NCBI GenBank assembly: GCA_022560735.1 | Contig: JADFSO010000008.1 | Location: 10,691 to 74,690 of the forward strand | From: Pseudomonadota bacterium | GTDB taxonomy: Bacteria > Pseudomonadota > Gammaproteobacteria > Steroidobacterales > MnTg04 | Length of the DNA stretch: 64,000 bases | Reading direction: 5' to 3' | In this document: one piece after another, positions 1-53,874 of the stretch | Layout of the letters: each line of letters starts with the position of its first letter | Numbering within the stretch: position 1 is the first letter of the stretch | Notes under the pieces: model-generated | Told to the model about the DNA's origin: nothing | Database searches by the model: none | Seen by the model: the letters and a program-made list of their open reading frames with translations, nothing else | Program-made: the position numbers and the translations under genes

Positions 1-1115
1 CAACGCGCTGCGGCATGCCGTTTGTCAATCATCGCTGGCTGGGCGGCATGCTGACCAATTTCAAGACCATCACCGCGTCGATCGGCCGGCTCGAAGAGCT
101 GGAGGCGATGGAAGAAAGCGGCGCGTTCGAAGCGCTGGTCAAGAAGGAGGTCATCGGCCTGCGGCGCGAGATGGACAAGCTGTTCCGCAGCCTGGGTGGC
201 ATCAAAAACATGAAGGGCCTGCCCGACGCATTGTTCATCGTCGATGTCGGCCACGAGAATATTGCAATCCGCGAAGCGGTCAAACTGGGTATACCGGTAA
301 TCGCCGTCGTGGATACCAACTGCTCGCCGGATGGCGTCGATTACATTATTCCCGGCAACGACGATGCGATGCGCGCGATCCAGCTGTACGCGCACGGCGT
401 ATCGGAAGCGGTTCTCGATGGCAAGGCCTCGCTGCCTGAAATCAACCTCGGCGATGACGAATTCGTCGAGCTCGATGACGAAGGCAAGCCCCGCAAGGAG
501 AGTACGGCCAAGAAACCGGCGCGCAAGAAAGCAGACAGGAAGGTCGTTGTGACGACGCTTCGAAAGGCCAGGGCAGACGAGCCGGCCGAGGCAAAGCCTG
601 TTGCGGATGACTCGGCAGTGGAGGCGCAGGCCAAGCCAGAACCGGCGCAGGCCGGCGCCGATGTCGAACAGGCAGCGGCAGGCGAAGAGCCCGCTGAAAA
701 ACTGGCCGTCGAAAAGCTGGAGCAAAAGCCGGCCGAGGCAAAGCCCGAAGAAACGGTGGCCGGTCAACAGCCAGTCGAGGCAAAGCCTGAAGAAACATTG
801 ACCGACAAAAAGCCGGCCGAGGCAAAGCCCGAAGAAAAGGCGACCGACCAACAGCCAGTCGAGGCAAAGCCCGAAGAAACGGTGACCGACAAAAAGCCGG
901 CCGAGGCAAAGCCTGAAGAAAAGCCGGTCGTCGCAAAGGCAGGGGACAAACAGCCCGCGGCGAAAAAAGCGGCGACCCGGAAAGTCGCAACGAAAAAGGT
1001 CGTGAGCAAGAAAGCCGCGGCCGGGAAAGCGCCAGCCAAAAAAGCGGCAGGGGAAAAAACCACAGCCAGGAAAGCCACGACGGAAAAAGCCGCTGCCGAC
1101 AAGAAGGACGCCTGA
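1..1115 (+). CDS. rpsB: 30S ribosomal protein S2, 5'-truncated by the window edge, with a long C-terminal extension
   Basis: S2 motifs [48 protein letters not shown]. The frame is open from position 3 and tsf follows. Confidence 0.97.
726..923 (+). repeat. In-frame 42-bp (14-aa) tandem repeat, about 4.7 copies, in the S2 extension
   Basis: GAGGCAAAGCC recurs at 735, 777, 819, 861 and 903. Units alternate KPAEAKPEE / [10 protein letters not shown] partial extra copy lies at about 588. Confidence 0.95.
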
Positions 1116-4317: not shown

Positions 4318-5107
4318 GCAAAGAATCATTACAGCCGTGGCCTTGCTGGCGGTACTCGCCGGCGTGGTGTTGTTCCTGCCGCCGCCGGGCGCATTGATTA
4401 CGCTGACCCTGGCGATCAGCCTGGGCATCTGGGAGTGGAGCCAGTTTCTTGGCCTGAAATCCTTGCTCTGGCGGTTGCTGTACGTCGTCGTCGTGCTGGC
4501 GTCGATGCTTGCCGTGTGGCTATACAGCTTTCAACCCGGGGCATTGCAACTGGTGTTGCAGATTACGCTGGCCTGGTGGCTGGTGGTTTTTGTCTGGGTC
4601 ACGCGCTTTCCCACCGCGATCCCGATGGCGGTTGGCTTTTTATCGGGATTCCTGGTGCTGGTGCCAGCCTGGCTCGCGCTGAGCCGTCTGCTGGGCGCGG
4701 AAAATGGCGTGGCCTGGGTGGTTTTTGTGCTGCTCGTGGTCTGGGCAACCGACATCGGCGCGTTTGCCGTGGGTAAACTGTTTGGCAGGATCAAGCTGAT
4801 TCCCAGGGTCAGCCCGGGGAAAACCTGGGAAGGCGCGATCGGCGGCATTGCGCTTGCCACAATCGTTGCCTTTGCCGGCGCCCTGTATTTTAAGCAAGAC
4901 CCGCTGAGCTTTGTTTCGCTGTGTGTCGCCGTGTCGGTGATTTCTGTCATCGGGGATCTGATTGTCAGTATTTTCAAAAGGCATAATGGATTGAAAGACA
5001 GTGGGCAAATTTTCCCGGGTCATGGCGGCATGCTCGATCGTATCGACAGTATTTGCTCGGCGGCCCCGGTGTTTGTGCTCGGGCTGAGCTGGCAGGGACT
5101 GGTCTGA
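4310..5107 (+). CDS. cdsA: Phosphatidate cytidylyltransferase
   Basis: Hydrophobic protein with SPGKTWEG and [19 protein letters not shown] signatures. Confidence 0.96.
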
Positions 5108-6291
5108 TGAAAGGCGTCAGTATCCTGGGGTCGACCGGGAGCGTCGGTTGCAGCACGCTGGACGTGATCGCACGCAACCCCGATGCATTTCGCGTGGTTG
5201 CGCTGACCGCCAGGAGCAATCACCGGCGCTTGTTGCAACAGTGCATGGTTTTCGAGCCGGACCTCGCGGTTTTGACCGATAACGGGGCCGCCGATGTGTT
5301 GCGCGAAGGGCTGCAACAGGCTGGCCTCAAAACCAGACTGCTCGCCGGCGCCGGCGCACTGGTCGAGGCGGCCGGGCTTGCGCAGGCCGATTTTGTCATG
5401 GCAGCGATCGTCGGCGCCGCTGGCTTGCTGCCGACGCTGGCCGCGGCACAGGCGGGCAAAAGAGTCTTGCTGGCCAACAAGGAATCGCTGGTGCTTGCCG
5501 GGCATTTGTTGATCGAGGCCGTAGCAAACAACGGCGCAACCTTGATCCCGATCGACAGCGAGCACAACGCAATTTTCCAGTGTCTGCCCGATCCCGGCGG
5601 CCGGCGGTCGAAACTCGGCGTGCGCAAATTATGGTTGACAGCATCGGGTGGTCCGTTTTTGAATACCCCGGTTGGCGAACTCGAAACGGTGACGCCGGAA
5701 CAGGCTTGCGCACATCCGAACTGGGACATGGGGGATAAAATTTCGGTCGATTCGGCCACGATGATGAACAAGGGTCTTGAGCTGATCGAAGCCGGCCATT
5801 TGTTCGCCATGTCGCCGGATGATATTGAAATCCTGATCCACCCACAGAGCATCGTGCATTCGCTGGTCGAATATCGCGATGGTTCGGTGTTGGCGCAACT
5901 GGGCAACCCGGATATGCGTACCCCCATTGCCCACGCTCTTGCGTGGCCGGAGCGTATGGAATCCGGGGTGAAATCGCTGGACCTGGTGGCCATCGCAAAG
6001 CTTGAGTTTCAGGCGCCCGACACGGATCGTTTTCCGTGCCTGGCGCTGGCGAGGGCGGCTGCGGAACGCGGTGGTACGGCGCCGGCGGCGCTCAATGCCG
6101 CGAATGAGATCGCGGTAGAGGCATTCCTCGACCGGCGCCTGCCATTCATGGAAATTGCTGCAGTTATTGCCAATACGATGGAATGCCACGGTGTCGAGGC
6201 GGTCGAATCCCTGGAGACGGTCATAAACGCGGATCGATGGGCGCGCGAAAAAGCGGGCCAGACAGTTAAAGAGATGGGTATAACGGTATGA
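5107..6291 (+). CDS. dxr: 1-deoxy-D-xylulose-5-phosphate reductoisomerase
   Basis: [51 protein letters not shown]. Confidence 0.97.
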
Positions 6292-26297: not shown

Positions 26298-27056
26298 ATG
26301 CTGGAACAGATTGAGCACGACGATATTCGGGAAATCCGCCTGGCGCGGCCGCCGGTCAATGCGATCGATGCGCCGATGATGCTGGCGATTCACGCCGCGC
26401 TGCAGAAAGCAGCCGATGACGAGGTGTCGGGAGTCGTACTGTCCGGGCGTCCGGGCTTGTTTTCGGCGGGGCTCGACATTCCATCCCTGTTGCAGCTGGA
26501 GCGGGACGAGATCGCGGAATTCTGGCGGAGTTTTTTTCGCGTTCTGCAAACGCTGGCGGCTTTTCCGGCACCGGTTTTTGCGGCGATCGGCGGCCACAAC
26601 CCGGCGGGTGGTACGGTATTAGCGATTTTCTGCGACCGGCGCATCGCCGCCAGGGGCGATTTTCGCATGGGGCTCAATGAGGTGGCGGTCGGGCTGGCCC
26701 TGCCGCGGTTGATTTTTTATGCCTATCGTTTGCTGCTCGGTCAGCGGGAGGCGGAAAGGCTGGCGGTGGTCGGCGAAATGATCAGCTCCGCCGATGCGCT
26801 CGCCTGCGGGCTGGTCGATGAGCTCGTCGAACCCGACGACGTGGTGACGACCGCGCTCGACAGGTTGCGCGGGGTGCTCGGTGTACCCAGGCGCGCGATG
26901 CTGGTCACTCGCCGGATCGCCCGGCAGCCGTTGATGGATATTTTCGATCAGCTGGACGAGGGCATGGTCGAGGCGATCACCGATGGCTGGTTCAGCGAGG
27001 AAACCCAGGCGGTCCTTGGTCAGCTGGTCGAGTCGCTGGCCAGTAAAAAAGCGTAG
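26298..27056 (+). CDS. Crotonase-family enoyl-CoA isomerase/hydratase (ECI1-like delta3-delta2 isomerase type)
   Basis: RPPVNAID, FSAGLD, GHNPAGGTVLAIFCDRRI, MGLNEVAVGL; AGGAG RBS. Subfamily assignment from recalled motif similarity. Confidence 0.85.
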   Translation: MLEQIEHDDIREIRLARPPVNAIDAPMMLAIHAALQKAADDEVSGVVLSGRPGLFSAGLDIPSLLQLERDEIAEFWRSFFRVLQTLAAFPAPVFAAIGGHNPAGGTVLAIFCDRRIAARGDFRMGLNEVAVGLALPRLIFYAYRLLLGQREAERLAVVGEMISSADALACGLVDELVEPDDVVTTALDRLRGVLGVPRRAMLVTRRIARQPLMDIFDQLDEGMVEAITDGWFSEETQAVLGQLVESLASKKA

Positions 27057-27069
27057 GCTGCGGTCGCGT

Positions 27070-27347
27070 TGAGATTGGGGCGTCGCGGGCCACTGTTTTA
27101 CTCACTGCTAGATGAACTTCGTTCCGAATCGAGCTGTGAGTAAAACAGCGTCCCGCGACAATGCTGGGAGATCGCGGCGCAGCCAATCGTGACGCTTCGA
27201 GTGGCGATGGTGGTATTGGGGACTGTGGTTGGCATGAAATTGGCGTTTTGCGGGCCACTGGTTTAGCCACTGCCAGATGAACTGCGTTCCGAATCGAGCT
27301 GTGACTAAACCAGCGTCCCGCAAAACAATGCTGGGAGATCGTGGTCC
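27070..27347. repeat. Tandem array 1 of a ~165-bp structured non-coding repeat (copy A 27070-27234, partial copy B 27235-27347)
   Basis: Period 165 bp (TGAGATTGG at 27070, TGAAATTGG at 27235). Each copy contains an inverted repeat around TGCYAGATGAACTKCGTTCCGAATCGAGCT. Homologous to 36603-36915. Confidence 0.95.
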
Positions 27348-27371
27348 AGCTGACCTTGACAGGTCGGTTGG

Positions 27372-27899
27372 TTATTTCAGCAGTACATAAACTGCGCCGC
27401 TGCCGCCGTGGGCCGGCAGCGTCGTGACATAGGCAAGCACTTCGGTCCGGTGGCGCAGGTAACTGCCAACCAGCGGTTTGATCACCGGGCCGGCGGGGCC
27501 GGAGCCGAGTCCCTTGCCGTGGACGACGCGCACGCAGCGCGAACCCGTGGCGAGGCTTTCGTCGATAAATTCCACCAGCAGGTGTTTCGCCTGCTCGGCG
27601 TTGAGCCCGTGCAAATCGCATTCGTTTTCGATCGCGTACTGGCCACGGCGCAGTTTGCGCATGACTTTGGCCGGCAAGCCGGGGCGGGCATAGATCATTT
27701 CCTCGCCGCTCTGTATCTCGCCGGGCAGCGGTGAATCGCTGAGGCTCTGGCGCATGACTTCTGCGTTGTCGCGGCTCGTGAACCTGGCCGTCGCCCTGGG
27801 TTTTGCTGCATCGAGTTCGGCACGCGGCTGGCCCGTCAATTGACGTACATCCTGCATCGCTTTGCGAAACCGGGATTTTTCGTCGTCATGTGTGCTCAT
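27372..27899 (-). CDS. Stand-alone Smr domain protein (SmrA/YdaL-like)
   Basis: CDLHGLNA, VVHGKGLGS, GGSGAVYVLLK. Start set at ATG 27899. Confidence 0.9.
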   Translation of the reverse strand: MSTHDDEKSRFRKAMQDVRQLTGQPRAELDAAKPRATARFTSRDNAEVMRQSLSDSPLPGEIQSGEEMIYARPGLPAKVMRKLRRGQYAIENECDLHGLNAEQAKHLLVEFIDESLATGSRCVRVVHGKGLGSGPAGPVIKPLVGSYLRHRTEVLAYVTTLPAHGGSGAVYVLLK

Positions 27900-28059
27900 C
27901 GTGTCACCCGGGAGTGCTGTGCCCGCAATGGCGCCATCGGTTCGCGCCCGGCGGCGGTTTATAGTTGGCCATTGTGCTTTCCAGTATAGTAGGCAGCCGA
28001 TGAACATGACCATACGCAACCTGCGTTTGTCGTACTGAAACCGCAAAGGGACGCGCGGC

Positions 28060-28809
28060 TTGAATATTCTTCTGAGCAATGACGATGGTTACCTGGCGCC
28101 GGGATTGCGTTGCCTGGCGGAGGCTATCGCCGATCTGGCCGAGGTCACCATCGTCGCACCCGATCGCAATCGCAGCGGCGCCAGCAATTCGCTGACGCTC
28201 GATATGCCGCTGCGGGTCCACCGGGCGGGACCTCGTGTTTTCTTTGTCGAGGGGACGCCAACCGATTGTGTGCACCTGGCGATCACGGGTTTGCTCGATA
28301 CCGAGCCGGACATGGTCATTTCGGGGATCAACGATGGCGCCAACCTCGGTGACGATGTGCTGTATTCGGGCACCGTCGCCGCGGCCATGGAAGGGCGTTT
28401 CCTCGGCCTGCCGACCATGGCTTTGTCGCTGGTCGGCGGTAGCCGCCGCTTGTTCGAGACCGCTGCGCGGGTCGCCAGGGAGTTACTGATTCGCCTGACC
28501 GAGAATCCGTTGCCATCCGATACGATATTGAATGTCAACGTCCCCGACCTGGCCTACGAAGAAATATCCTCCTCGGTGGTGACCCGCCTGGGCTATCGGC
28601 ATCGCGCCGAACCGGTGATTCGCAGCAAGGATCCGAAAGGCAATGAGATCTTCTGGGTCGGGCCACCCGGCACCGGTCAGGACGCCGGTCCGGGTACGGA
28701 TTTTTTTGCGGTCGCCGAGGGCCGGGTTTCGATCACGCCGTTGCAGGTGGATCTGACCCGGCACGCGGATCTCGACAAGCTGAGTCAGTGGCTGGAACAA
28801 ACGCCGTGA
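28060..28809 (+). CDS. surE: 5'/3'-nucleotidase SurE
   Basis: [53 protein letters not shown]. Confidence 0.97.
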
Positions 28810-32252: not shown

Positions 32253-33944
32253 ATGGAGATTCGTAACAGGCCGCTTGCCGTCGAGGATTTTCTGCCGGCG
32301 GACATGCATCCGGTCCTGAAACGTATTTACCTGGGGCGTGGTATCGGCGAGCCACGACAACTGGACCTGTCGCTGGGCGGCTTGTTGCCGGTCGGAGATC
32401 TCGGTAGTACCGGGCAAGCGGTCGACTTGCTGCTTGCGCACCGGCAAAAAAACTCGCTGATCCTGATCGTCGGCGATTTCGACGCCGATGGCGCGACCTC
32501 GACCGCCCTGTTGATGAGAGGGCTGAAGCAACTGGGTTTCGCCAGGCTGGGCTACCTGTTGCCCGACCGGTTTTTGCTGGGTTATGGTTTGACCCCGGCA
32601 ATAGTCGAGTTGGCCGGGCAGCAGGATCCGGGTCTGATCATCACCGTGGACAACGGTATCTCGAGCATCGATGGCGTTGCGCTGGCAAGAAAAATGGCTA
32701 TCGAGGTGCTGGTCACGGATCATCACCTGCCGGGGCCGGAGTTGCCGGATGCCAATGTCATTCTCAATCCCAACCTGCGTGGAGAAAAATTCAGCGGCAA
32801 GTCACTGGCGGGGGTCGGCGTCGCGTTCTATTTGCTGGCCGCCTGCGAACGGCGGCTGGACTCGGGCAGCGCCGTCGCGGCCGGTCTGCTCGACCTGGTG
32901 GCGCTGGGTACGGTCGCCGATGTGGTCGCGCTGGAGCGGAACAACCGCATCCTGATCGAGCAGGGCTTGCGGCGGATCAGGGCCGGTCGCTGTTGCGCGG
33001 GGATTACCGCGCTGCTGGAAGTGGCAGGCAAGCACCCGGCCCGCGCCCGGGCCAGCGATCTCGGTTTTGCGGTGGGACCGCGGCTCAATGCCGCCGGCCG
33101 GCTGGATGACATGACGATCGGTGTGGAATGTTTGCTGGCGGAGCAGTTGCCGGCCGCCCGCATACTTGCGGCCCGCCTGGATGGATTGAATCGGGAGCGG
33201 CGCGAGCTGGAAAAAAAGATGGCGGCCGAGGCGCTGGCCATCGTCGATGCGCTGGTCCTGGAGCAAAGCAGTGAGCTCCCCTGGGGAATATGCCTGTACG
33301 ATCCCGGCTGGCACCAGGGCGTGGTCGGCCTGGTCGCGTCGCGCGTCCGCGAGAAATTCAGCCGGCCGGTGGTCGCCTTCGCCCCGGGCCAGGGCGATGA
33401 ACTGAAAGGCTCGGCGCGCTCGGTGCCGGGCCTGCACATACGCGACGCACTCGATGAAATAGCGACCCGCCATCCGGGATTGCTCGGCAAGTTCGGTGGC
33501 CATGCGATGGCCGCCGGTCTCAGCCTGGAGAGTGACCGCTTTGCGTTGTTCGCGGAGGCATTCGACTCGGTGGTCAGGCAAAAACTCAGGATCGAGGACC
33601 TGCAGGCTTTCCACTTCAGCGATGGGCAACTGGCTGCGGGGGATCTCGATCTGAGCCTGGCGGAACTGATGGCGGATGCCGGACCGTGGGGCCAGGGTTT
33701 CCCGGAGCCACAGTTTGACGGTGAATTCGAGCTCATCGAGCAGCGCGTCGTTGGCGGCTCGCACCTGAAACTCAGGCTGCGCGCAGCCGATGGCGGGCAA
33801 ACGCTGGGCGGCATCGCGTTCCGCCAGTCCTGGCCCGACAATGCCGGCGATCGCGTGCGCCTGGTTTACCGGCTCGAGGTCAATGAGTTTCGCGGTCGCC
33901 GCGAAGCCCAGCTCAACGTGATCCAGATCGAAGCTCTCGAGTGA
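32253..33944 (+). CDS. recJ: ssDNA exonuclease RecJ
   Basis: IVGDFDADGATS, ITVDNG, VTDHHL, GSARS, GGHAMAAG. Confidence 0.97.
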   Translation: MEIRNRPLAVEDFLPADMHPVLKRIYLGRGIGEPRQLDLSLGGLLPVGDLGSTGQAVDLLLAHRQKNSLILIVGDFDADGATSTALLMRGLKQLGFARLGYLLPDRFLLGYGLTPAIVELAGQQDPGLIITVDNGISSIDGVALARKMAIEVLVTDHHLPGPELPDANVILNPNLRGEKFSGKSLAGVGVAFYLLAACERRLDSGSAVAAGLLDLVALGTVADVVALERNNRILIEQGLRRIRAGRCCAGITALLEVAGKHPARARASDLGFAVGPRLNAAGRLDDMTIGVECLLAEQLPAARILAARLDGLNRERRELEKKMAAEALAIVDALVLEQSSELPWGICLYDPGWHQGVVGLVASRVREKFSRPVVAFAPGQGDELKGSARSVPGLHIRDALDEIATRHPGLLGKFGGHAMAAGLSLESDRFALFAEAFDSVVRQKLRIEDLQAFHFSDGQLAAGDLDLSLAELMADAGPWGQGFPEPQFDGEFELIEQRVVGGSHLKLRLRAADGGQTLGGIAFRQSWPDNAGDRVRLVYRLEVNEFRGRREAQLNVIQIEALE

Positions 33945-34004
33945 GCGCAGCGCCCGCGCGTGCTAACATTTGCGCCTTTGAAAACCGAAGAGTTCGCAGC
34001 CGCC

Positions 34005-35100
34005 ATGGAAATCAATCCGATCAGGGAACAGATAGCAGACCTCGAGAGCCGCAGCCAGGCTCTGAGGGGGTATCTTTGACTACGACGGCAAAGTGGAAAG
34101 ACTGGAAGAGGTCAGCCGGGAACTGGAAAATTCCGCAATCTGGGACGACCCGGAAAAGGCCCAGAGCCTGGGCAAAGAGCGCGCCAGGCTGGACGAGATT
34201 GTCGGTACGCTGGATGCCCTGAGCAGCGGGTTGCGGGATAACCTCGAACTGCTGGAAATGGCGGTTGCCGAAGACGACGAAGAAACGGTTTCGTCGATCA
34301 TTGAGGAACTCGGCGAACTGACCCGGCGGCTGGCGGCGATGGAGTTCCGGCGGATGTTTTCCGGGGAGCATGATGCCAGTAACGCCTTCGTGGAAATTCA
34401 ATCCGGCTCGGGCGGTACGGAGGCGCAGGACTGGGCCAATATGCTGCTGCGGATGTATCTGCGCTGGGGGGAGGCGCACGATTTCAAGACAGAAATAATC
34501 GAGTTGTCCGCGGGTGAGGTGGCCGGCATCAAGAGCGCGACTATTCAGATATCGGGTAACTATGCCTATGGCTGGTTGCGCACGGAAACCGGTGTCCATC
34601 GGCTGGTCAGAAAGTCGCCGTTCGATTCGGGCAATCGCCGGCACACCTCGTTCGCCGCTGTTTTCGTTTCGCCGGAAATAGACGACGAAATCGAGATCGA
34701 GATCAACCCGGCGGATCTGCGCATCGATGTGTACCGGGCGAGCGGGGCCGGTGGTCAGCATGTCAATCGGACCGAGTCGGCGGTCCGTATCACTCATCGG
34801 CCGACCAACGTCGTTGTGCAGTGCCAGAGCGACCGGTCGCAGCACAAAAACAAGGCGACGGCGATGAAACAGTTGAAAGCGAAGCTTTATGAACTGGAGA
34901 TGCAGAAAAAGAACGCGGCTGCGCAGGAACTCGAAGCCGGCAAAGCGGATATAGGCTGGGGCAGCCAGATTCGTTCCTACGTCCTCGATCAGTCGCGGAT
35001 AAAAGATTTGCGAACTTTGGTGGAAACAGGAAACACCCAGGCCGTACTCGATGGCGATCTCGACCTGTTCATCGAAGCGAGTTTGAAACAGGGACTCTGA
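34005..35100 (+). CDS. prfB: Peptide chain release factor 2, translated by a programmed +1 frameshift (join 34005-34076, 34078-35100; about 364 aa)
   Basis: 24-codon [27 protein letters not shown] ends at CTT TGA C. The +1 frame continues [11 protein letters not shown] and contains SPF and GGQHVN. Confidence 0.97.
34065..34080 (+). promoter_or_regulatory. RF2 frameshift cassette (internal SD + slippery CTT TGA C)
   Basis: AGGGGGTATCTTTGAC, matching the canonical prfB autoregulatory site. Confidence 0.97.
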
Positions 35101-35106
35101 CAAGGC

Positions 35107-36600
35107 GTGAAACAGATGACGGAAGAAAACGAACACGAGCTGATCGCCGAGAGACGGCGAAAGTTACAACGACTGCGGGAGCACGGCCCCGCCTATCCGA
35201 ATGATTTTCGCCGCGATGCACTGGCCGGCGAGTTGCACGCAAAGTATGGCGAACACGACGATAAGAAACTGAAGCAGGCAAATATTGAAGTCGCCGTTGC
35301 CGGTCGCATGATGGCAAAACGCGTCATGGGCAAGGTCTCTTTTGCCAAGCTGCAGGACCGCAGCGGCCAGATCCAGATATTTCTCACCGGCGATGAATTG
35401 CCGGATGGCGTCTACCAGGATTTCAAGAGCTGGGATCTCGGCGATATAGTCGCGGCCCGCGGATCTTTGTTCAGGACCAGGACCGGCGAACTCAGCGTGC
35501 GGGCGGTCGAGTGCCGCATACTCGGAAAATGTTTGCGCCCCTTGCCGGAGAAATTTCATGGCCTGCAGGATCAGGAGACGCGCTATCGTCAGCGTTATCT
35601 CGACCTGGTCATGAACCCCGGCTCCCGGCAGGTCTTCCAGGCGCGCACCCGGGTGGTCTCCCATATTCGCAATTTTCTCGATAGCCGGGATTTCATGGAG
35701 GTCGAGACGCCGATGATGCAATCGATCCCCGGTGGGGCGGTCGCGCGTCCGTTTATCACCCACCACAACGCACTCGATATGGAGCTGTATCTGCGGATCG
35801 CACCCGAGCTTTATCTGAAAAGGCTGGTCGTCGGCGGCTTCGAGCGGGTATACGAGGTCAATCGCAATTTCCGCAACGAGGGGCTTTCGACGCAGCACAA
35901 CCCGGAATTTACGATGCTCGAGCTGTACCAGGCCTATGCCGATTGGGAAGACATCATGGCGCTGACCGAGTCGCTGATACACAGTCTCGTCGATGCCCTG
36001 CATGGCCAGGAGGAGATCAGTTACCAGGGCGAGTCCATCGGGATGGGCAAGCCGTTCCGGCGCATCAGCGTGGAGCAGGCGGTGATCGGCGAGAATCCGT
36101 TGCTCGAATCGAAGACCCGCGACCGCGATGCCCTGGCGGCGCGTTGCGTGGAGCTTGGTCTGGTCGTCGACGATGCGGCGGGCGCCGGCAAGCTGCTGTT
36201 TGATATTTTCGACAAAACCGTTGAAGACAAACTGCGACAACCTACATTTGTGACTTCATATCCGGCGGAAGTCTCTCCTTTGTCACGCTGCGACGATAAC
36301 GATCCGTTTCTCACGGATCGTTTCGAGTTGTTTATTGCCGGGCGCGAGATCGCCAACGGTTTTTCCGAACTCAACGATCCGGAGGAGCAGGCGGCGAGAT
36401 TCAAGGCGCAGGTTGCACTCAAGGACGCCGGTGACCACGAGGCGATGTTCTATGACCATGACTATATCCGTGCGCTTGAGGTTGGCATGCCGCCGACCGG
36501 GGGTCTTGGCATCGGCATCGACCGGCTGGTCATGCTGTTGACCGATTCCGCATCGATTCGCGATGTCGTGTTGTTTCCGCACATGCGGCCGGAGTTTTAG
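35107..36600 (+). CDS. lysS: Lysyl-tRNA synthetase (class II)
   Basis: [52 protein letters not shown]. Alternative start ATG 35116. Confidence 0.98.
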
Positions 36601-36602
36601 CC

Positions 36603-36915
36603 GGCCGCCGGTTTAGCCACTGCTAGATGAACTTCGTTCCGAATCGAGCTGTGACTAAACCGGCGTCCCACAAAACAATGCTGTGAGATCGCGGCCCCGG
36701 CAAATGTGACGCTTCGATGGGTGATGGTGGTATTTGGACTGTGGTTGGCATGAGATTGGGGTTTTGCGGGCCGCCGGTTTAGCCACTGCTAGATGAACTT
36801 CGTTCCGAATCGAGCTGTGACTAAACCGGCGTCCCACAAAACAATGCTGTGAGATCGCGGCCCTGGCAAATGTGACGCTTCGATGGGTGATGGTGGTATT
36901 TGGACTGTGGTTGGC
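36603..36915. repeat. Tandem array 2 of the ~166-bp structured non-coding repeat
   Basis: 36603-36749 and 36769-36915 are identical over 147 bp except one C/T; period 166 bp; same hairpin and apex as 27070-27347. Confidence 0.97.
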
Positions 36916-36935
36916 CAGCCGCTGTTTTACTGACT

Positions 36936-37841
36936 CTAGCCTGGGACTGGATAAGGCAGATCGAGGGGGCTTAGCGGTGTGCCGTCGATGTTTAGATCCG
37001 CCTGTCGTTGATCGTGTCGGATGACTGCGAGGTATTCCCAGGCGGGCTGGTCGCCGCCGGGGCATTTCTGGCGGTTCAGTATTTCGCCGACTTTCTTGCC
37101 GTTCGCAACATTGACTTCGTCGCCGGTGATTTCGGTTTCGCTGCCGAGGCGGCACAGGCGGCGTTTTATTTTTCCGAGGTTCTGGGTGCGGGCGATAATT
37201 TCCTGGCCGGCATAACAGCCCTTGCTGAAACTGATTGCGCCGATCAGGTCGAGGTTCAGCATTTGCGCGGTATAACGTGCCTGGTTGGCGGTGGTCACTC
37301 GCGGTATGCCGGCGCGGATATCCGCCAGGCGCCACTGGGTTTCCGGCTGCTCGGTCAGGGCGTCGTTCAGCAGTTGCCAGTCGGCGCTGTCCGGTGGCCC
37401 GCAGGCAAGAATCCGTTGCCCGTTGTAAGCGGCGAGCAGCAGTCCGCCGGCGGTGCGGGTCACGCAACCGGGTTGCGGTATCGGCAGGGCCGGCAGCGCG
37501 GCGGCGAGATTCGCTCCGCCCAGACCGCACAAGCCGTTAGCGATGCTGAACTCCACCTTGGCGCGCAACACGTATCGCGACAAGCGGTCGCGGATATCCT
37601 GGACTATCTCGCTCGGCAGGATCAGGCTGGCCTCGTTTCCTTGCAGCAGGACCAGGGCCAGCGCGAGTACCCGGCCGTCTGGCTGGTGATAAGCGGACCA
37701 CTGGCAGCGGGTGTCATCCAGCGCATGCATATCGTTGCTGAGCTGGCCTTGCAGAAAGCTGACGGTATCGGCGCCGGCGATCGTCAGGACGCTGGTTCCG
37801 GGCAGATTGGCGCGCCAGTTTTTATTGATTTTCCCATTCAT
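36936..37841 (-). CDS. ygfZ: Folate-binding Fe-S maturation protein YgfZ
   Basis: GADTVSFLQGQLSND, AQMLNLD, ISFSKGCYAGQEIIARTQNLGKIKRRL. Confidence 0.94.
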   Translation of the reverse strand: MNGKINKNWRANLPGTSVLTIAGADTVSFLQGQLSNDMHALDDTRCQWSAYHQPDGRVLALALVLLQGNEASLILPSEIVQDIRDRLSRYVLRAKVEFSIANGLCGLGGANLAAALPALPIPQPGCVTRTAGGLLLAAYNGQRILACGPPDSADWQLLNDALTEQPETQWRLADIRAGIPRVTTANQARYTAQMLNLDLIGAISFSKGCYAGQEIIARTQNLGKIKRRLCRLGSETEITGDEVNVANGKKVGEILNRQKCPGGDQPAWEYLAVIRHDQRQADLNIDGTPLSPLDLPYPVPG

Positions 37842-52564: not shown

Positions 52565-53874
52565 GCCGTGGCCTGGCGTCTCGCCCCGTGCAAACTGCCA
52601 ATATCATGCGCCTCGATCACAAGGGACGGGGCGAAGCCGATGTCCCCGGCCGCGCGGCCAGGGTGCACCATACGCTGCCGGGCGAACAGGTCACGTTCAA
52701 GCGCCGGCGGCGACGGCGAGGATTCGACGAAGCGGAAATTGTCGAGCTGCTCAGGCCTTCGGCGCACCGGGTCGAACCGCGCTGCCCGCATTTCGGCAAC
52801 TGCGGCGGTTGCTCGATGCAGCATATCGATCCCGGGCAGCAGATCGCGCTCAAACAGGGCTGGTATCGCGAAATGCTGGCCGGATACGAGCTGGAGCCGG
52901 AACGCTGGCTCGAGCCCTTGTCCGGTCCGCAGTGGGCTTACCGCCGCCGCGCCAGGCTGGGGGTCAAGAAGGTCGCCGGCAAGGGCAGGGTGCTGGTCGG
53001 TTTTCGCGAGGTTTTCAAATCCTTTGTCGCCGATATGGATGGCTGTGAAATCCTCTCGGGCAATGTCGGCCAGCTCATAGCCCCGCTGTGCCAGCTGATC
53101 GACGGGCTCAGTATCTGCGAGCGGATTCCGCAAATTGAAGTCGCCGTTGCGGACAATGCGACGGCGCTGGTACTGCGTGTTCTCGATACCCCGACGGCGG
53201 ACGATCTCGAAGCGCTCAGACAATTTGCCGGGTGCCACCAGGTGCGGTTCTATCTGCAGGAGGGCGGTCTGGACAGCGTGCAGCCGCTGATCGAGGGGCA
53301 AGACGCGCTGTGTTACAGACTGCCGGCTTTCGACCTGGAACTGGAATTTTCGCCGGTCGATTTTATCCAGGTGAACGGGGCGCTCAACGAGAAAATGATC
53401 GAGCTGGCAATCGAGTTGTTGGCGCCACGGGATGATGAGCAGGTACTCGATCTTTTTTGCGGTCTGGGCAATTTCAGCCTGGCGCTGGCCCGGCGCTGCG
53501 CCGGCGTGACCGGTATCGAAGGAGACATGGGCCTGGTCGAACGCGCCCATGGCAACGCGATCCGGAACAACATCGACAATGCAGAATTTCTGCCGGCCGA
53601 TTTGTTCTTTCCGTCCGCCGAAGAGCCATGGATGACCGGCCGGTACCCCTGTGTCGTGCTGGATCCGCCGCGCAGCGGCGCCAGCCAGGTTATTCCGTTC
53701 CTGCCGTCCGTGGGCGCCCAGCGTATCGTCTATGTCTCGTGCAACCCCGCCAGCCTTGCGCGCGACGCGGCCAGCCTGGTGGAATTGGGCTATGATTTCA
53801 AGGCGACCGGGGTCATGGACATGTTTCCGCACACCAGTCATGCGGAGGCGATCGCGTTGTTTGCCAGGCCATAG
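52561..53874 (+). CDS. rlmD: 23S rRNA (uracil-5)-methyltransferase RlmD
   Basis: TRAM-like N-terminus, CPHFGNCGGCSMQH Fe-S motif, LDLFCGLGNF, LDPPRSG, YVSCNP, DMFPHT. Confidence 0.92.
   Translation: MSRGLASRPVQTANIMRLDHKGRGEADVPGRAARVHHTLPGEQVTFKRRRRRRGFDEAEIVELLRPSAHRVEPRCPHFGNCGGCSMQHIDPGQQIALKQGWYREMLAGYELEPERWLEPLSGPQWAYRRRARLGVKKVAGKGRVLVGFREVFKSFVADMDGCEILSGNVGQLIAPLCQLIDGLSICERIPQIEVAVADNATALVLRVLDTPTADDLEALRQFAGCHQVRFYLQEGGLDSVQPLIEGQDALCYRLPAFDLELEFSPVDFIQVNGALNEKMIELAIELLAPRDDEQVLDLFCGLGNFSLALARRCAGVTGIEGDMGLVERAHGNAIRNNIDNAEFLPADLFFPSAEEPWMTGRYPCVVLDPPRSGASQVIPFLPSVGAQRIVYVSCNPASLARDAASLVELGYDFKATGVMDMFPHTSHAEAIALFARP

What the first reader, a model, noticed from the sequence alone, without database searches (positions are those of the whole stretch)
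36603..36915. Array 2: near-perfect 166-bp tandem duplication of the same element between lysS and ygfZ
Seen: it starts 3 nt after the lysS stop and ends 21 nt before the ygfZ stop. The two copies differ at 1 of 147 positions (GGCCCCGG versus GGCCCTGG). Inference: very recent duplication or ongoing homogenisation, indicating an active amplification mechanism (rolling-circle or ssDNA-type copying, or slippage) rather than an old relic.
Basis: partly seen in the sequence, partly recalled or inferred. Interest (0 to 1): 0.7.

Follow-up and report, generated by a model that had tools for sequence, protein, structure and literature searches.

The report
Tandem hairpin repeat between lysS and ygfZ
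The near-identical 166-base duplication is real, but it is the latest local copy-number change in an old, lineage-specific, non-coding hairpin repeat of the REP/ERIC kind that sits between two convergent housekeeping genes, which is a fairly ordinary sort of bacterial intergenic repeat.

Summary
Window 36603-36749 and 36769-36915 are tandem copies with a 166-nt period and 1 mismatch in 147 (C36698 vs T36864). Each unit is a 33-bp hairpin plus a G-rich spacer. The same element forms array 1 (27057-27371) and occurs at about six conserved intergenic sites in a small clade that includes the Woeseiaceae/JTB255 MAG MnTg04.

The hairpin shows 8 compensated pairs, a tip that never varies in 20 copies, and wobble pairs that favour the minus strand. 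It matches no Rfam family and has no promoter, terminator or conserved ORF.

At lysS-ygfZ, outgroup relatives (YgfZ 50-77% identical) have overlapping stop codons and no spacer. All relatives at 81% or above carry the array and form one clade, so it was gained once and is old. Its content turns over quickly: the closest relative (YgfZ 98%, flanks 94.6% nt) has one copy of another subtype.

The window's pair is therefore a recent duplication or homogenisation. Unequal recombination between the spacer direct repeats is enough to explain it, and nothing supports rolling-circle or ssDNA copying. It most likely acts as a 3'-UTR RNA hairpin that insulates the two convergent genes, but this is inferred. 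It is a new family of a known kind, of modest interest.

The parts
35107..36600 (+). lysS (class II lysyl-tRNA synthetase). Its last two sense codons and stop (..GAG TTT TAG) differ from all relatives (..GAA TCN TAG) and resemble the element's spacer end (GGGGTTTTGCGGGCC).
   Evidence: Pfam tRNA-synt_2 6e-94; junction alignment with L017 and with other relatives.
36600..36671 (-). Hairpin of copy 1: 72 nt, 33 pairs, triloop. Its base is altered (GCCGGCC instead of GCGGGCC) where it abuts and overlaps the lysS stop.
   Evidence: covariance-model hit of 98.3 bits on the minus strand.
36672..36765 (-). Spacer of copy 1: a 'long-form' insert (AAAACAATGCTGTGAGATCGCGGCCCCGGCAAATGTGAC) plus a G-rich segment (GCTTCGATGGGTGATGGTGGTATTTGG...GCATGAGATTGGGGTTTT). 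It is C-rich and G-poor when read on the minus strand.
   Evidence: 40% C, 15% G on the minus strand.
36766..36837 (-). Hairpin of copy 2 (intact base GCGGGCC...GCGTCCCAC).
   Evidence: Covariance-model hit of 110.3 bits on the minus strand; minimum free energy -43.8 kcal/mol on the minus strand vs -38.0 on the plus strand.
36838..36915 (-). Spacer of copy 2, truncated at ..GGTTGGC. It contains the single difference between the copies (T36864 vs C36698).
36916..36935 (-). Remnant of a third copy's 5' hairpin arm (CAGCCGCTGTTTTACTGACT, subtype X), ending at the CTAG that holds the ygfZ stop. The same truncated arm lies at this position in L007, L010, L017, L018 and L021.
36936..37841 (-). ygfZ (folate-binding, Fe-S cluster-related YgfZ/CAF17 family). 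Homologues are 301 aa; the longest ORF runs to 37877. It is co-oriented with the strand on which the hairpin pairs best, so the array lies directly downstream of its stop.
   Evidence: NCBIfam TIGR03317 1.1e-25; homologues of 301 aa.
27057..27371 (-). Array 1 of the same element, between an enoyl-CoA hydratase-family gene (26298-27056, +) and a Smr-domain gene (27372-28079, -). It holds a partial spacer, hairpin X (27085-27156), a spacer, hairpin Y (27250-27321) and a partial spacer.

Best explanation
Array 2 is a tandem array of two copies plus a fragment of a lineage-specific, non-coding intergenic repeat. The unit is a 72-nt hairpin of 33 base pairs with an invariant tip, plus a ~75-95-nt spacer. 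SHOWN: the element was gained once at the lysS/ygfZ junction, in the ancestor of a small clade related to the Woeseiaceae/JTB255 MAG MnTg04. It split two convergent genes whose stop codons previously overlapped in a single YTAR tetranucleotide. Since then the array has changed in copy number (1 or 2 complete copies plus a fixed truncated arm), in hairpin subtype and in spacer form. The window's two copies are the product of an event younger than the split from its closest known relative. INFERRED MECHANISM OF DUPLICATION: every complete hairpin is flanked by direct repeats of the spacer ([S][HP][S]), so unequal homologous recombination or replication slippage between spacers adds or removes [HP+S] units. 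Gene conversion from copies at other loci overwrites subtypes. No dedicated amplification machinery is needed. INFERRED FUNCTION: the element is read as a single strand from the window's minus strand, the sense strand of ygfZ. It is most likely the RNA of the ygfZ 3' UTR. There, very stable hairpins preceded by C-rich, G-poor tracts would stop or insulate convergent transcription between ygfZ and lysS and protect the mRNA 3' end, as REP, BIME and ERIC elements are reported to do. The element also has, or had, some capacity to insert at new places.
For: Duplication. Same element at a second site in the window and at about six sites in relatives, with 1 or 2 copies at orthologous sites. Structure: 8 pairs with compensatory double changes, with 0 of 500 shuffles reaching this, and 86.8-90.1% of cells paired vs 22-44% in slid controls. 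Strand: wobble pairs at 5 positions (23 cells) on the minus strand vs 1 position (2 cells) on the plus strand; -43.8 vs -38.0 kcal/mol. Constraint: third-codon identity of the flanking genes is 75-78%, yet hairpins differ by only 5-8 of 72 bases between the window's array 2 and most relatives' copies, and 53 of 98 aligned columns, including the whole tip, its T.T and A.G mismatches and its CGA bulge, are invariant in 20 copies. Single ancient gain: empty sites with 4-nt stop overlap or directly abutting genes in L023, L027, L028, L029, L024/L025 and L026, and filled sites in the window, L017, L018, L007, L010 and L021/L022; filled genomes are monophyletic in a YgfZ tree. Recent change in the window lineage. 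[S][HP][S] architecture and subtype mixtures. Position: 5 of 6 sites lie between convergent genes and abut stop codons. C-rich minus-strand spacer at 40% C and 15% G. Housekeeping neighbourhood with no mobile-element genes. REP-class elements are reported as mostly within 20 bp of the 3' ends of convergent or unidirectional ORFs, as often supplying a TAG stop, and as clustered in tandem with flanking DNA (PMC3733652).
Against: There is no expression data, so RNA-level function is inference. The hairpin is not followed by a U-tract, and the simple scan finds no terminator in the unit. One site (L008/L016) lies between divergent genes, upstream of ettA, where a 3'-UTR role cannot apply. Hairpin-less derivatives are tolerated at the smr/hydratase site in L019/L021 and in L012, so the hairpin is dispensable at least at some sites. 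Cross-species conservation of the tip could come from repeated overwriting by active copies rather than host-level selection, and such overwriting is seen between the window and L017. The first copy in the window lacks a left spacer, so the duplication must predate that truncation or have used another route.
Confidence: 0.55

Rival explanations
1. The element is an actively mobile, selfish miniature element. The hairpin tip is the recognition site of a transposase or recombinase encoded elsewhere (RAYT/IS200-like acting on ssDNA, or a circle-forming enzyme). Tandem copies arise because new units insert next to existing ones.
For: A second, oppositely oriented copy has entered the same smr/hydratase spacer in L011, next to the remnant of the older copy. 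TAG(Y)CTG occurs at both ends of the lysS-ygfZ array, like a target-site duplication of the ancestral YTAR overlap. Arrays mix subtypes that are shared between loci (a/b in MnTg04, X/Y in the window), which simple local duplication does not give. The invariant tip with fixed mismatches and a bulge is the kind of feature hairpin-binding transposases read. The strand asymmetry fits ssDNA as well as RNA.
Against: No transposase lies in the window's syntenic 20 kb. The family is low-copy, with only two sites in 64 kb, none extra in ~244 kb, and 4 loci hit in a 1.7-Mb MAG. Most sites are positionally conserved between species. No conserved GTAG or CGTC tag is present in the expected unpaired terminal position. 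The right ends of arrays are ragged. Subtype sharing is equally explained by gene conversion between dispersed arrays. The L011 arrangement could also come from inversion between hairpin arms.
Confidence: 0.2
2. Each unit is an independent small-RNA gene, and the arrays are a multi-copy, tandemly duplicated trans-acting sRNA family whose invariant hairpin tip or C-rich tail pairs with targets or binds a protein.
For: There is strong covariation, an invariant tip and wobble asymmetry pointing to one transcribed strand. Positions are conserved across species. The C-rich single-stranded region on the same strand resembles the C-rich seed regions of some known sRNAs (from general knowledge). Tandem sRNA paralogues are common in bacteria (general knowledge).
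Against: No sigma-70-like promoter and no intrinsic terminator occur in or beside the unit on either strand, and the candidate -10 region is not conserved among copies. No Rfam family matches. Arrays begin and end at arbitrary phases of the unit and overlap stop codons. Hairpin deletion is tolerated and orientation flips. The element was inserted into a place with no previous intergenic DNA.
Confidence: 0.15
3. The second copy is an assembly artefact: a collapsed or expanded repeat, or strain variants stitched in tandem.
For: The copies are almost identical and differ by one SNP. Two related scaffolds have N-gaps exactly at this array and at the smr/hydratase site, showing that assemblers struggle here.
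Against: Two complete copies plus the same truncated arm are assembled independently at the same junction in MnTg04 (L007) and in L010, with diverged copies that cannot be artefacts. The array is mid-contig. Array 1 in the same window has two clearly different copies.
Confidence: 0.05

Closest known systems
REP elements and their clusters (BIMEs; GTAG- and CGTC-tagged REP super-families, PMC3733652)
   Same: It is non-coding, palindromic and extragenic, and lies mostly between convergent genes within a few nucleotides of stop codons, even supplying or overlapping a TAG stop. It occurs as singletons or as clusters reiterated in tandem together with flanking DNA. Copy number varies between close relatives. 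It is plausibly transcribed and active as an RNA hairpin.
   Different: The hairpin is 72 nt with 33 pairs, against 20-40 nt with 5-13-bp stems. No conserved unpaired GTAG or CGTC tag is present. Units are head-to-tail, an arrangement that is rare for REPs. The family is low-copy (about six sites) rather than tens to thousands. The ~75-nt spacer is itself conserved. No RAYT link is known.
REPINs (two inverted REPs mobilised by a RAYT; PMC3116915, PMC3337134)
   Same: It forms a long hairpin with compensatory evolution, is vertically persistent in a lineage, and occurs in clusters.
   Different: The arms are not themselves REP palindromes: each arm alone folds at only -3.6 to -8.9 kcal/mol. The loop and tip are the most conserved part rather than the least. 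Abundance is low. RAYT presence could not be tested.
ERIC/IRU and other large palindromic intergenic units or MITE-like elements (ERIC, RU-2/YPAL, Correia; PMC2759123, PMC10969869; details from general knowledge)
   Same: The unit size (144-169 nt) is similar. It has one long imperfect palindrome, sits in transcribed intergenic regions in either orientation, is conserved in sequence across related species, and has presence/absence and internal insertion/deletion variants (long and short forms).
   Different: The inverted repeat is central and flanked by direct repeats, not terminal. Arrays are tandem. There is no sequence similarity to those families. It is restricted to one small uncultured clade.

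Membership tests
REP (GTAG/CGTC super-families) | Small unit of 20-40 bp with a stem of 5-13 bp | tested here: not met
   The hairpin is 72 nt with 33 pairs; criteria taken from PMC3733652.
REP (GTAG/CGTC super-families) | Conserved unpaired GTAG or CGTC tetranucleotide at one end of the palindrome | tested here: inconclusive
   CGTC occurs inside the basal 3' arm (GCGTCCC) with its T unpaired in 18 of 19 distinct copies, but it is not terminal. GTAG occurs 11 nt upstream of the hairpin in short-form copies and is replaced by TGAG in the window.
REP (GTAG/CGTC super-families) | Location close to the 3' ends of convergent or unidirectional ORFs | tested here: met
   5 of 6 sites lie between convergent genes, 0-45 nt from stops.
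REP (GTAG/CGTC super-families) | Moderate to high copy number, dispersed through the genome | tested here: inconclusive
   There are 2 sites in 64 kb, no further copy in ~244 kb searched with the covariance model, and 4 loci in the 1.7-Mb MnTg04 MAG by exact tip pattern. No complete genome was available.
REPIN/RAYT system | Two inverted REPs, each a palindrome of its own | tested here: not met
   The arms alone fold weakly (-3.6 to -8.9 kcal/mol) against -43.8 for the whole hairpin.
REPIN/RAYT system | A cognate RAYT (Y1 transposase) gene flanked by the repeats | not testable with these tools
   None lies in the syntenic 20-kb gene tables.
MITE | Terminal inverted repeats at the two ends of the unit | tested here: not met
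   The inverted repeat is central. Single-copy sites read [spacer][hairpin][spacer], with direct repeats at the ends.
MITE | Target-site duplication flanking the insertion | tested here: inconclusive
   TAG(Y)CTG lies at both ends of the lysS-ygfZ array, against a single CTAGTCTG in the empty site L023. Only one empty/filled pair was available, and the lysS C-terminus also differs.
Any described RNA family (Rfam 15) | Covariance-model match at the gathering score | tested here: not met
   No hit in the whole window. Only sub-threshold miRNA-like hairpin noise in 36500-37000.
Intrinsic (Rho-independent) terminator | GC-rich hairpin followed immediately by a U-tract | tested here: not met
   No terminator-like site falls inside the unit, and the hairpin is followed by CAAAAC or CCCAC on the two strands.
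Protein-coding tandem repeat or small ORF | Conserved reading frame across copies | tested here: not met
   Periods of 143, 145, 166 and 169 are not multiples of 3. Peptides read from the tip ATG differ in length and sequence (19, 26 and 37 aa). Stem changes are paired across the arms rather than synonymous.

The most novel reading that the evidence does not exclude
The invariant 35-nt hairpin tip, with its fixed T.T and A.G mismatches, CGA bulge and GAAC-NNN-GTTC cap, is the recognition site of a dedicated, still unidentified protein. In this reading the spacer-hairpin unit is either a small self-homing mobile element that inserts at YTAR stop-codon overlaps and next to existing copies, or a domesticated, portable transcription insulator that this clade places between convergent genes lacking any intergenic DNA.
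Probability: 0.12. Interest if true: 0.6.

Novelty: new member of a known kind. Interest (0 to 1): 0.33.

Why it matters
The finding adds a previously undescribed family of structured intergenic repeats, in an abundant but uncultured group of marine-sediment Gammaproteobacteria related to Woeseiaceae/JTB255. It comes with an unusually clean evolutionary record: a datable single insertion that pried apart two genes with overlapping stop codons, followed by copy-number change, subtype replacement, hairpin loss and a second insertion. That makes it a good natural case for studying how such repeats arise, persist and homogenise, and for asking whether they serve as terminators between convergent genes. 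In practice, these arrays break or distort short-read assemblies of these organisms. The finding does not point to a new amplification mechanism.

Tried and rejected
- **Rfam:** the gathering-threshold scan of the whole window and the permissive scan of the region gave nothing but weak miRNA-like hairpin noise.
- **Promoter and terminator scan of 36400-37100:** there is no site inside the unit. A hand-read candidate promoter on the plus strand (TTGATG/GTGACG, 19 nt, TATTTG) was rejected because the spacing is wrong and the -10 is not conserved (TAGTGG, TGGTGG, TATCAG in relatives).
- **Sigma-54 motif near TGGCAT:** rejected on spacing and on absence from the short-form copies.
- **Coding potential:** the tip ATG and the 42-aa minus-strand ORF (36623-36751) are not conserved. 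The 291-aa ORF 36655-37530 has no family hit and is an alternative frame of ygfZ.
- **Genome-collection pattern hits L001, L002, L003 and L006:** these are chance matches in unrelated sequence. L001 and L006 are read by eye as histidine-kinase coding sequence.
- **Phage or plasmid origin:** no viral contig carries the tip pattern and there is no plasmid similarity.
- **L019 vs L020 length differences:** an apparent presence/absence polymorphism turned out to be scaffold N-gaps.
- **Left leader of the lysS-ygfZ array as a duplicated ygfZ 3' end:** rejected, because most of it is spacer sequence. Its first ~16 nt resemble the terminal repeat of a second, CTAG-targeting element, but this stays unproven.
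- **That terminal repeat in the window:** absent.
- **Source of the window:** the exact YgfZ protein is not on record.

Full report
**Observation**

The reported duplication exists as described. Tandem Repeats Finder gives 36594-36915, period 166, 1.9 copies, 98% matches, score 623. An offset-166 comparison shows 146 of 147 identical bases between 36603-36749 and 36769-36915, the only difference being C36698 vs T36864.

- lysS (35107-36600, +; Pfam tRNA-synt_2 6e-94) ends with TAG at 36598-36600.
- ygfZ (minus strand, stop at 36938-36936; NCBIfam YgfZ/CAF17 domain 1.1e-25) begins 21 nt after the array.
- Element-like sequence starts at 36594, and the first hairpin's basal G is the G of the lysS stop.
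- The 20 nt before the ygfZ stop are a remnant of a third copy's 5' arm.
- The 'same element' elsewhere is real: array 1 (27057-27371) lies between an enoyl-CoA hydratase-family gene and a Smr-domain gene. It has two copies that are 83-85% identical to array 2 and to each other.

**Anatomy**

Each unit is a 72-nt hairpin plus a spacer.
- The hairpin has 29 stacked positions, a 3-nt bulge, a 4-bp cap and a TKC triloop.
- The spacer is G-rich on the plus strand (GCTTCGATGGGYGATGGTGGTATTTGG...GATTGG).
- The window carries a 'long form' (period 165-166). A 'short form' (period 143-145) lacks about 22 nt after the hairpin.
- There is no Rfam family at gathering score in the whole window and only noise at permissive thresholds.
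- No sigma-70-like promoter or intrinsic terminator lies inside the unit.
- Reading frames are not conserved.

**Relatives**

An exact-pattern scan for the hairpin tip in one genome per species found the element only in 'Bacterium MnTg04'. There it occurs as a tandem pair in each of four contigs. The other four hits were chance matches in unrelated sequence. MnTg04 is a JTB255/Woeseiaceae gammaproteobacterial MAG from an abyssal ferromanganese crust (PMC6839870).

A metagenome scan added eight loci, all true copies. These fall into about six orthologous sites:
- lysS-ygfZ;
- downstream of a secF-like gene (named by eye from its C-terminal sequence);
- smr/hydratase;
- upstream of an ettA-like gene (named by eye from its N-terminal sequence);
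- two further sites between convergent genes.

Orthologous sites carry one copy in some genomes and two in others. Five of the six sites lie between convergent genes and abut stop codons.

A covariance model of the hairpin finds only arrays 1 and 2 in the window, and no additional copy in about 244 kb of related DNA. The family is therefore low-copy. No viral contig and no plasmid carries it.

**Structure and strand**

- In 20 copies (19 distinct), 8 of 33 pairs show compensatory double changes in 18 cells. None of 500 column shuffles reaches this. 86.8% (plus) or 90.1% (minus) of cells are paired, against 22-44% when partners are slid by 1-3 columns.
- Variation is concentrated in the middle of the stem (GGTTTACC/GGTAAACC, GGTATACC/GGTATACC, GTTAAACC/GGTTTAAC, TGTATTACC/GGTAATACA, GTTTTACTC/GAGTAAAAC, GGTTTAGCC/GACTAAACC).
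- The tip never varies, including two fixed mismatches and the bulge.
- Wobble pairs occur at five positions (23 cells) on the window's minus strand but at one position (2 cells) on the plus strand. The minus-strand hairpin is more stable, at -43.8 vs -38.0 kcal/mol. The single-stranded form that matters is therefore the minus strand, which is the sense strand of ygfZ and of the smr gene.
- On that strand the spacer is 40% C and 15% G.
- Third-codon identity of lysS and ygfZ between the window and L007/L010 is 75-78%. The hairpins differ by only 5-8 of 72 bases between the window's array 2 and most relatives' copies, so the hairpin is constrained.

**History at lysS-ygfZ**

YgfZ homologues form a compact clade, from 98% down to 50% identity and then 43% or below. 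I fetched contigs across this range.

Empty sites: in L023, L027, L028 and L029 (YgfZ 75-77%) and L024/L025 (67%), the two genes overlap by 4 nt. One YTAR tetranucleotide (CTAG, TTAG or CTAA) serves as both stop codons. In L026 (50%) the two genes abut with no spacer.

Filled sites: the window, L017 (98%), L018 (85%), L007, L010 and L021/L022 (about 81%) all carry the array. These genomes are monophyletic in a YgfZ tree.

The array was therefore gained once and is old. In all filled genomes:
- it ends on the right with a truncated 5' arm, cut at the hairpin's own CTAG and fused to the ygfZ CTAG;
- TAG(Y)CTG occurs at both ends, like a target duplication of the ancestral overlap.

**Turnover**

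The content of the array is not fixed.
- L021/L022 and L017 have one complete copy. L007, L010 and the window have two.
- L018's hairpin is split by an unrelated ~190-bp element.
- Against L017, the window is 94.6% identical through ygfZ and identical over the aligned 3' end of lysS up to the last two codons. L017, however, has one copy of subtype X, identical in its hairpin to the window's array 1 copy 1. The window has two copies of subtype Y and a rewritten lysS end (GAG TTT TAG instead of GAA TCC TAG).
- Within-array identity is 99.3% only in the window. L007 has several differences between its copies and L010 about 15.
- At the smr/hydratase site, L019/L021 retain only a hairpin-less remnant. 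L011 has that kind of remnant plus an intact copy in the opposite orientation. This is most simply a second insertion into the same spacer, although inversion through the hairpin arms cannot be excluded.
- In MnTg04, three arrays share the subtype order a-b, while relatives have only a or only b at those sites. That fits gene conversion between dispersed arrays.

**Mechanism**

Every complete hairpin lies between direct repeats of the spacer. Unequal recombination or slippage between spacers adds or deletes [hairpin + spacer] units, and ectopic conversion swaps subtypes. This is enough to explain a near-perfect pair.

I found nothing that calls for rolling-circle or ssDNA copying. The syntenic 20 kb holds only housekeeping genes: smr, surE, pcm, nlpD-like, rpoS-like, recJ, prfB, lysS, ygfZ, sdhCDAB and the rpoE-rseABC genes.

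Function is inferred, not shown. The evidence for a role as a 3'-UTR RNA hairpin is:
- the strand bias;
- the position directly after stop codons of co-oriented genes;
- the very stable hairpin;
- the C-rich, G-poor tracts, a composition typical of Rho loading sites (general knowledge).

Such a hairpin would insulate convergent genes and protect 3' ends, a role proposed for REP-class elements (PMC3733652). Three things count against this: the lack of a U-tract, one site between divergent genes, and tolerated hairpin loss.

**Comparison with known kinds**

The element behaves like REP/BIME clusters, REPINs and ERIC-type palindromic units, but it is not a member of those families by the criteria I could test.
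- The hairpin is far longer than a REP.
- The arms are not palindromes of their own.
- No conserved terminal GTAG or CGTC tag is present.
- The inverted repeat is central rather than terminal.
- Copy number is low.
- RAYT linkage could not be tested.

I file it as a new family within the known class of structured intergenic repeats.

**Verdict**

Interest is modest. The clean empty/filled series and the invariant hairpin tip are the features worth a follow-up.

Noticed in passing
L018 within 1146-1600 (about 190 nt); also L015 about 5590-5610 and the right flank of the arrays in L004 (about 4935-4975), L009 and L013: A second, unrelated small element has ~28-bp terminal inverted repeats (TAGYCTGCATGYCGCCACGGATCGCGA). 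In L018 it is inserted at the CTAG in the hairpin tip. One of its ends replaces the 5' arm in L015, and a solo end provides the TAG stop of the gene to the right of the secF-site arrays. It appears to target CTAG/YTAR, the same motif as the ancestral lysS/ygfZ stop overlap. The first ~16 nt after the lysS stop in filled genomes resemble its terminus. It is absent from the window.
   Followed up: partly
L019 10896-11110 and L020 10896-11105; L020 20335-20610: Scaffold gaps (runs of N) sit exactly at the lysS-ygfZ array, and in L020 also at the smr/hydratase spacer. Short-read assemblers break at these repeats, and gene-table intergenic lengths there are unreliable.
   Followed up: yes
L019 20369-20431, L021 16233-16295, and L012 (oriented coordinates about 2020-2070): Hairpin-less derivatives of the element occur in which the spacer end is joined directly to the post-hairpin segment. 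This is consistent with precise deletion of the long palindrome.
   Followed up: partly
window 36592-36600: The lysS C-terminus is ..P-E-F-stop in the window but ..P-E-S-stop in all other filled genomes, and longer (for example ..P-E-K-P-G-stop) in genomes with the empty site. The repeat has remodelled the end of an essential gene at least twice.
   Followed up: partly
window 34074-34080 (+): CTTTGAC, the classical prfB +1 programmed-frameshift motif, lies between the two reading frames of release factor 2 (33941-34222 and 34093-35100).
   Followed up: partly
window 723-938 (+), inside ORF 15-1115: A 42/84-nt tandem repeat encodes KPAEAKPEE-type repeats in a long, charged C-terminal extension of ribosomal protein S2 (identified by eye from its N-terminal sequence, not by a family scan).
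   Followed up: no
L001 1225-1245 and L006 1418-1438: The hairpin-tip search pattern matches by chance what reads by eye as the coding sequence GTTFRIEL of histidine-kinase ATPase domains. This is a caution for pattern scans with this motif.
   Followed up: yes
window 52852-52947 (+): A weak covariance-model hit (16.1 bits, E about 0.16) to the hairpin model. It is probably noise.
   Followed up: no
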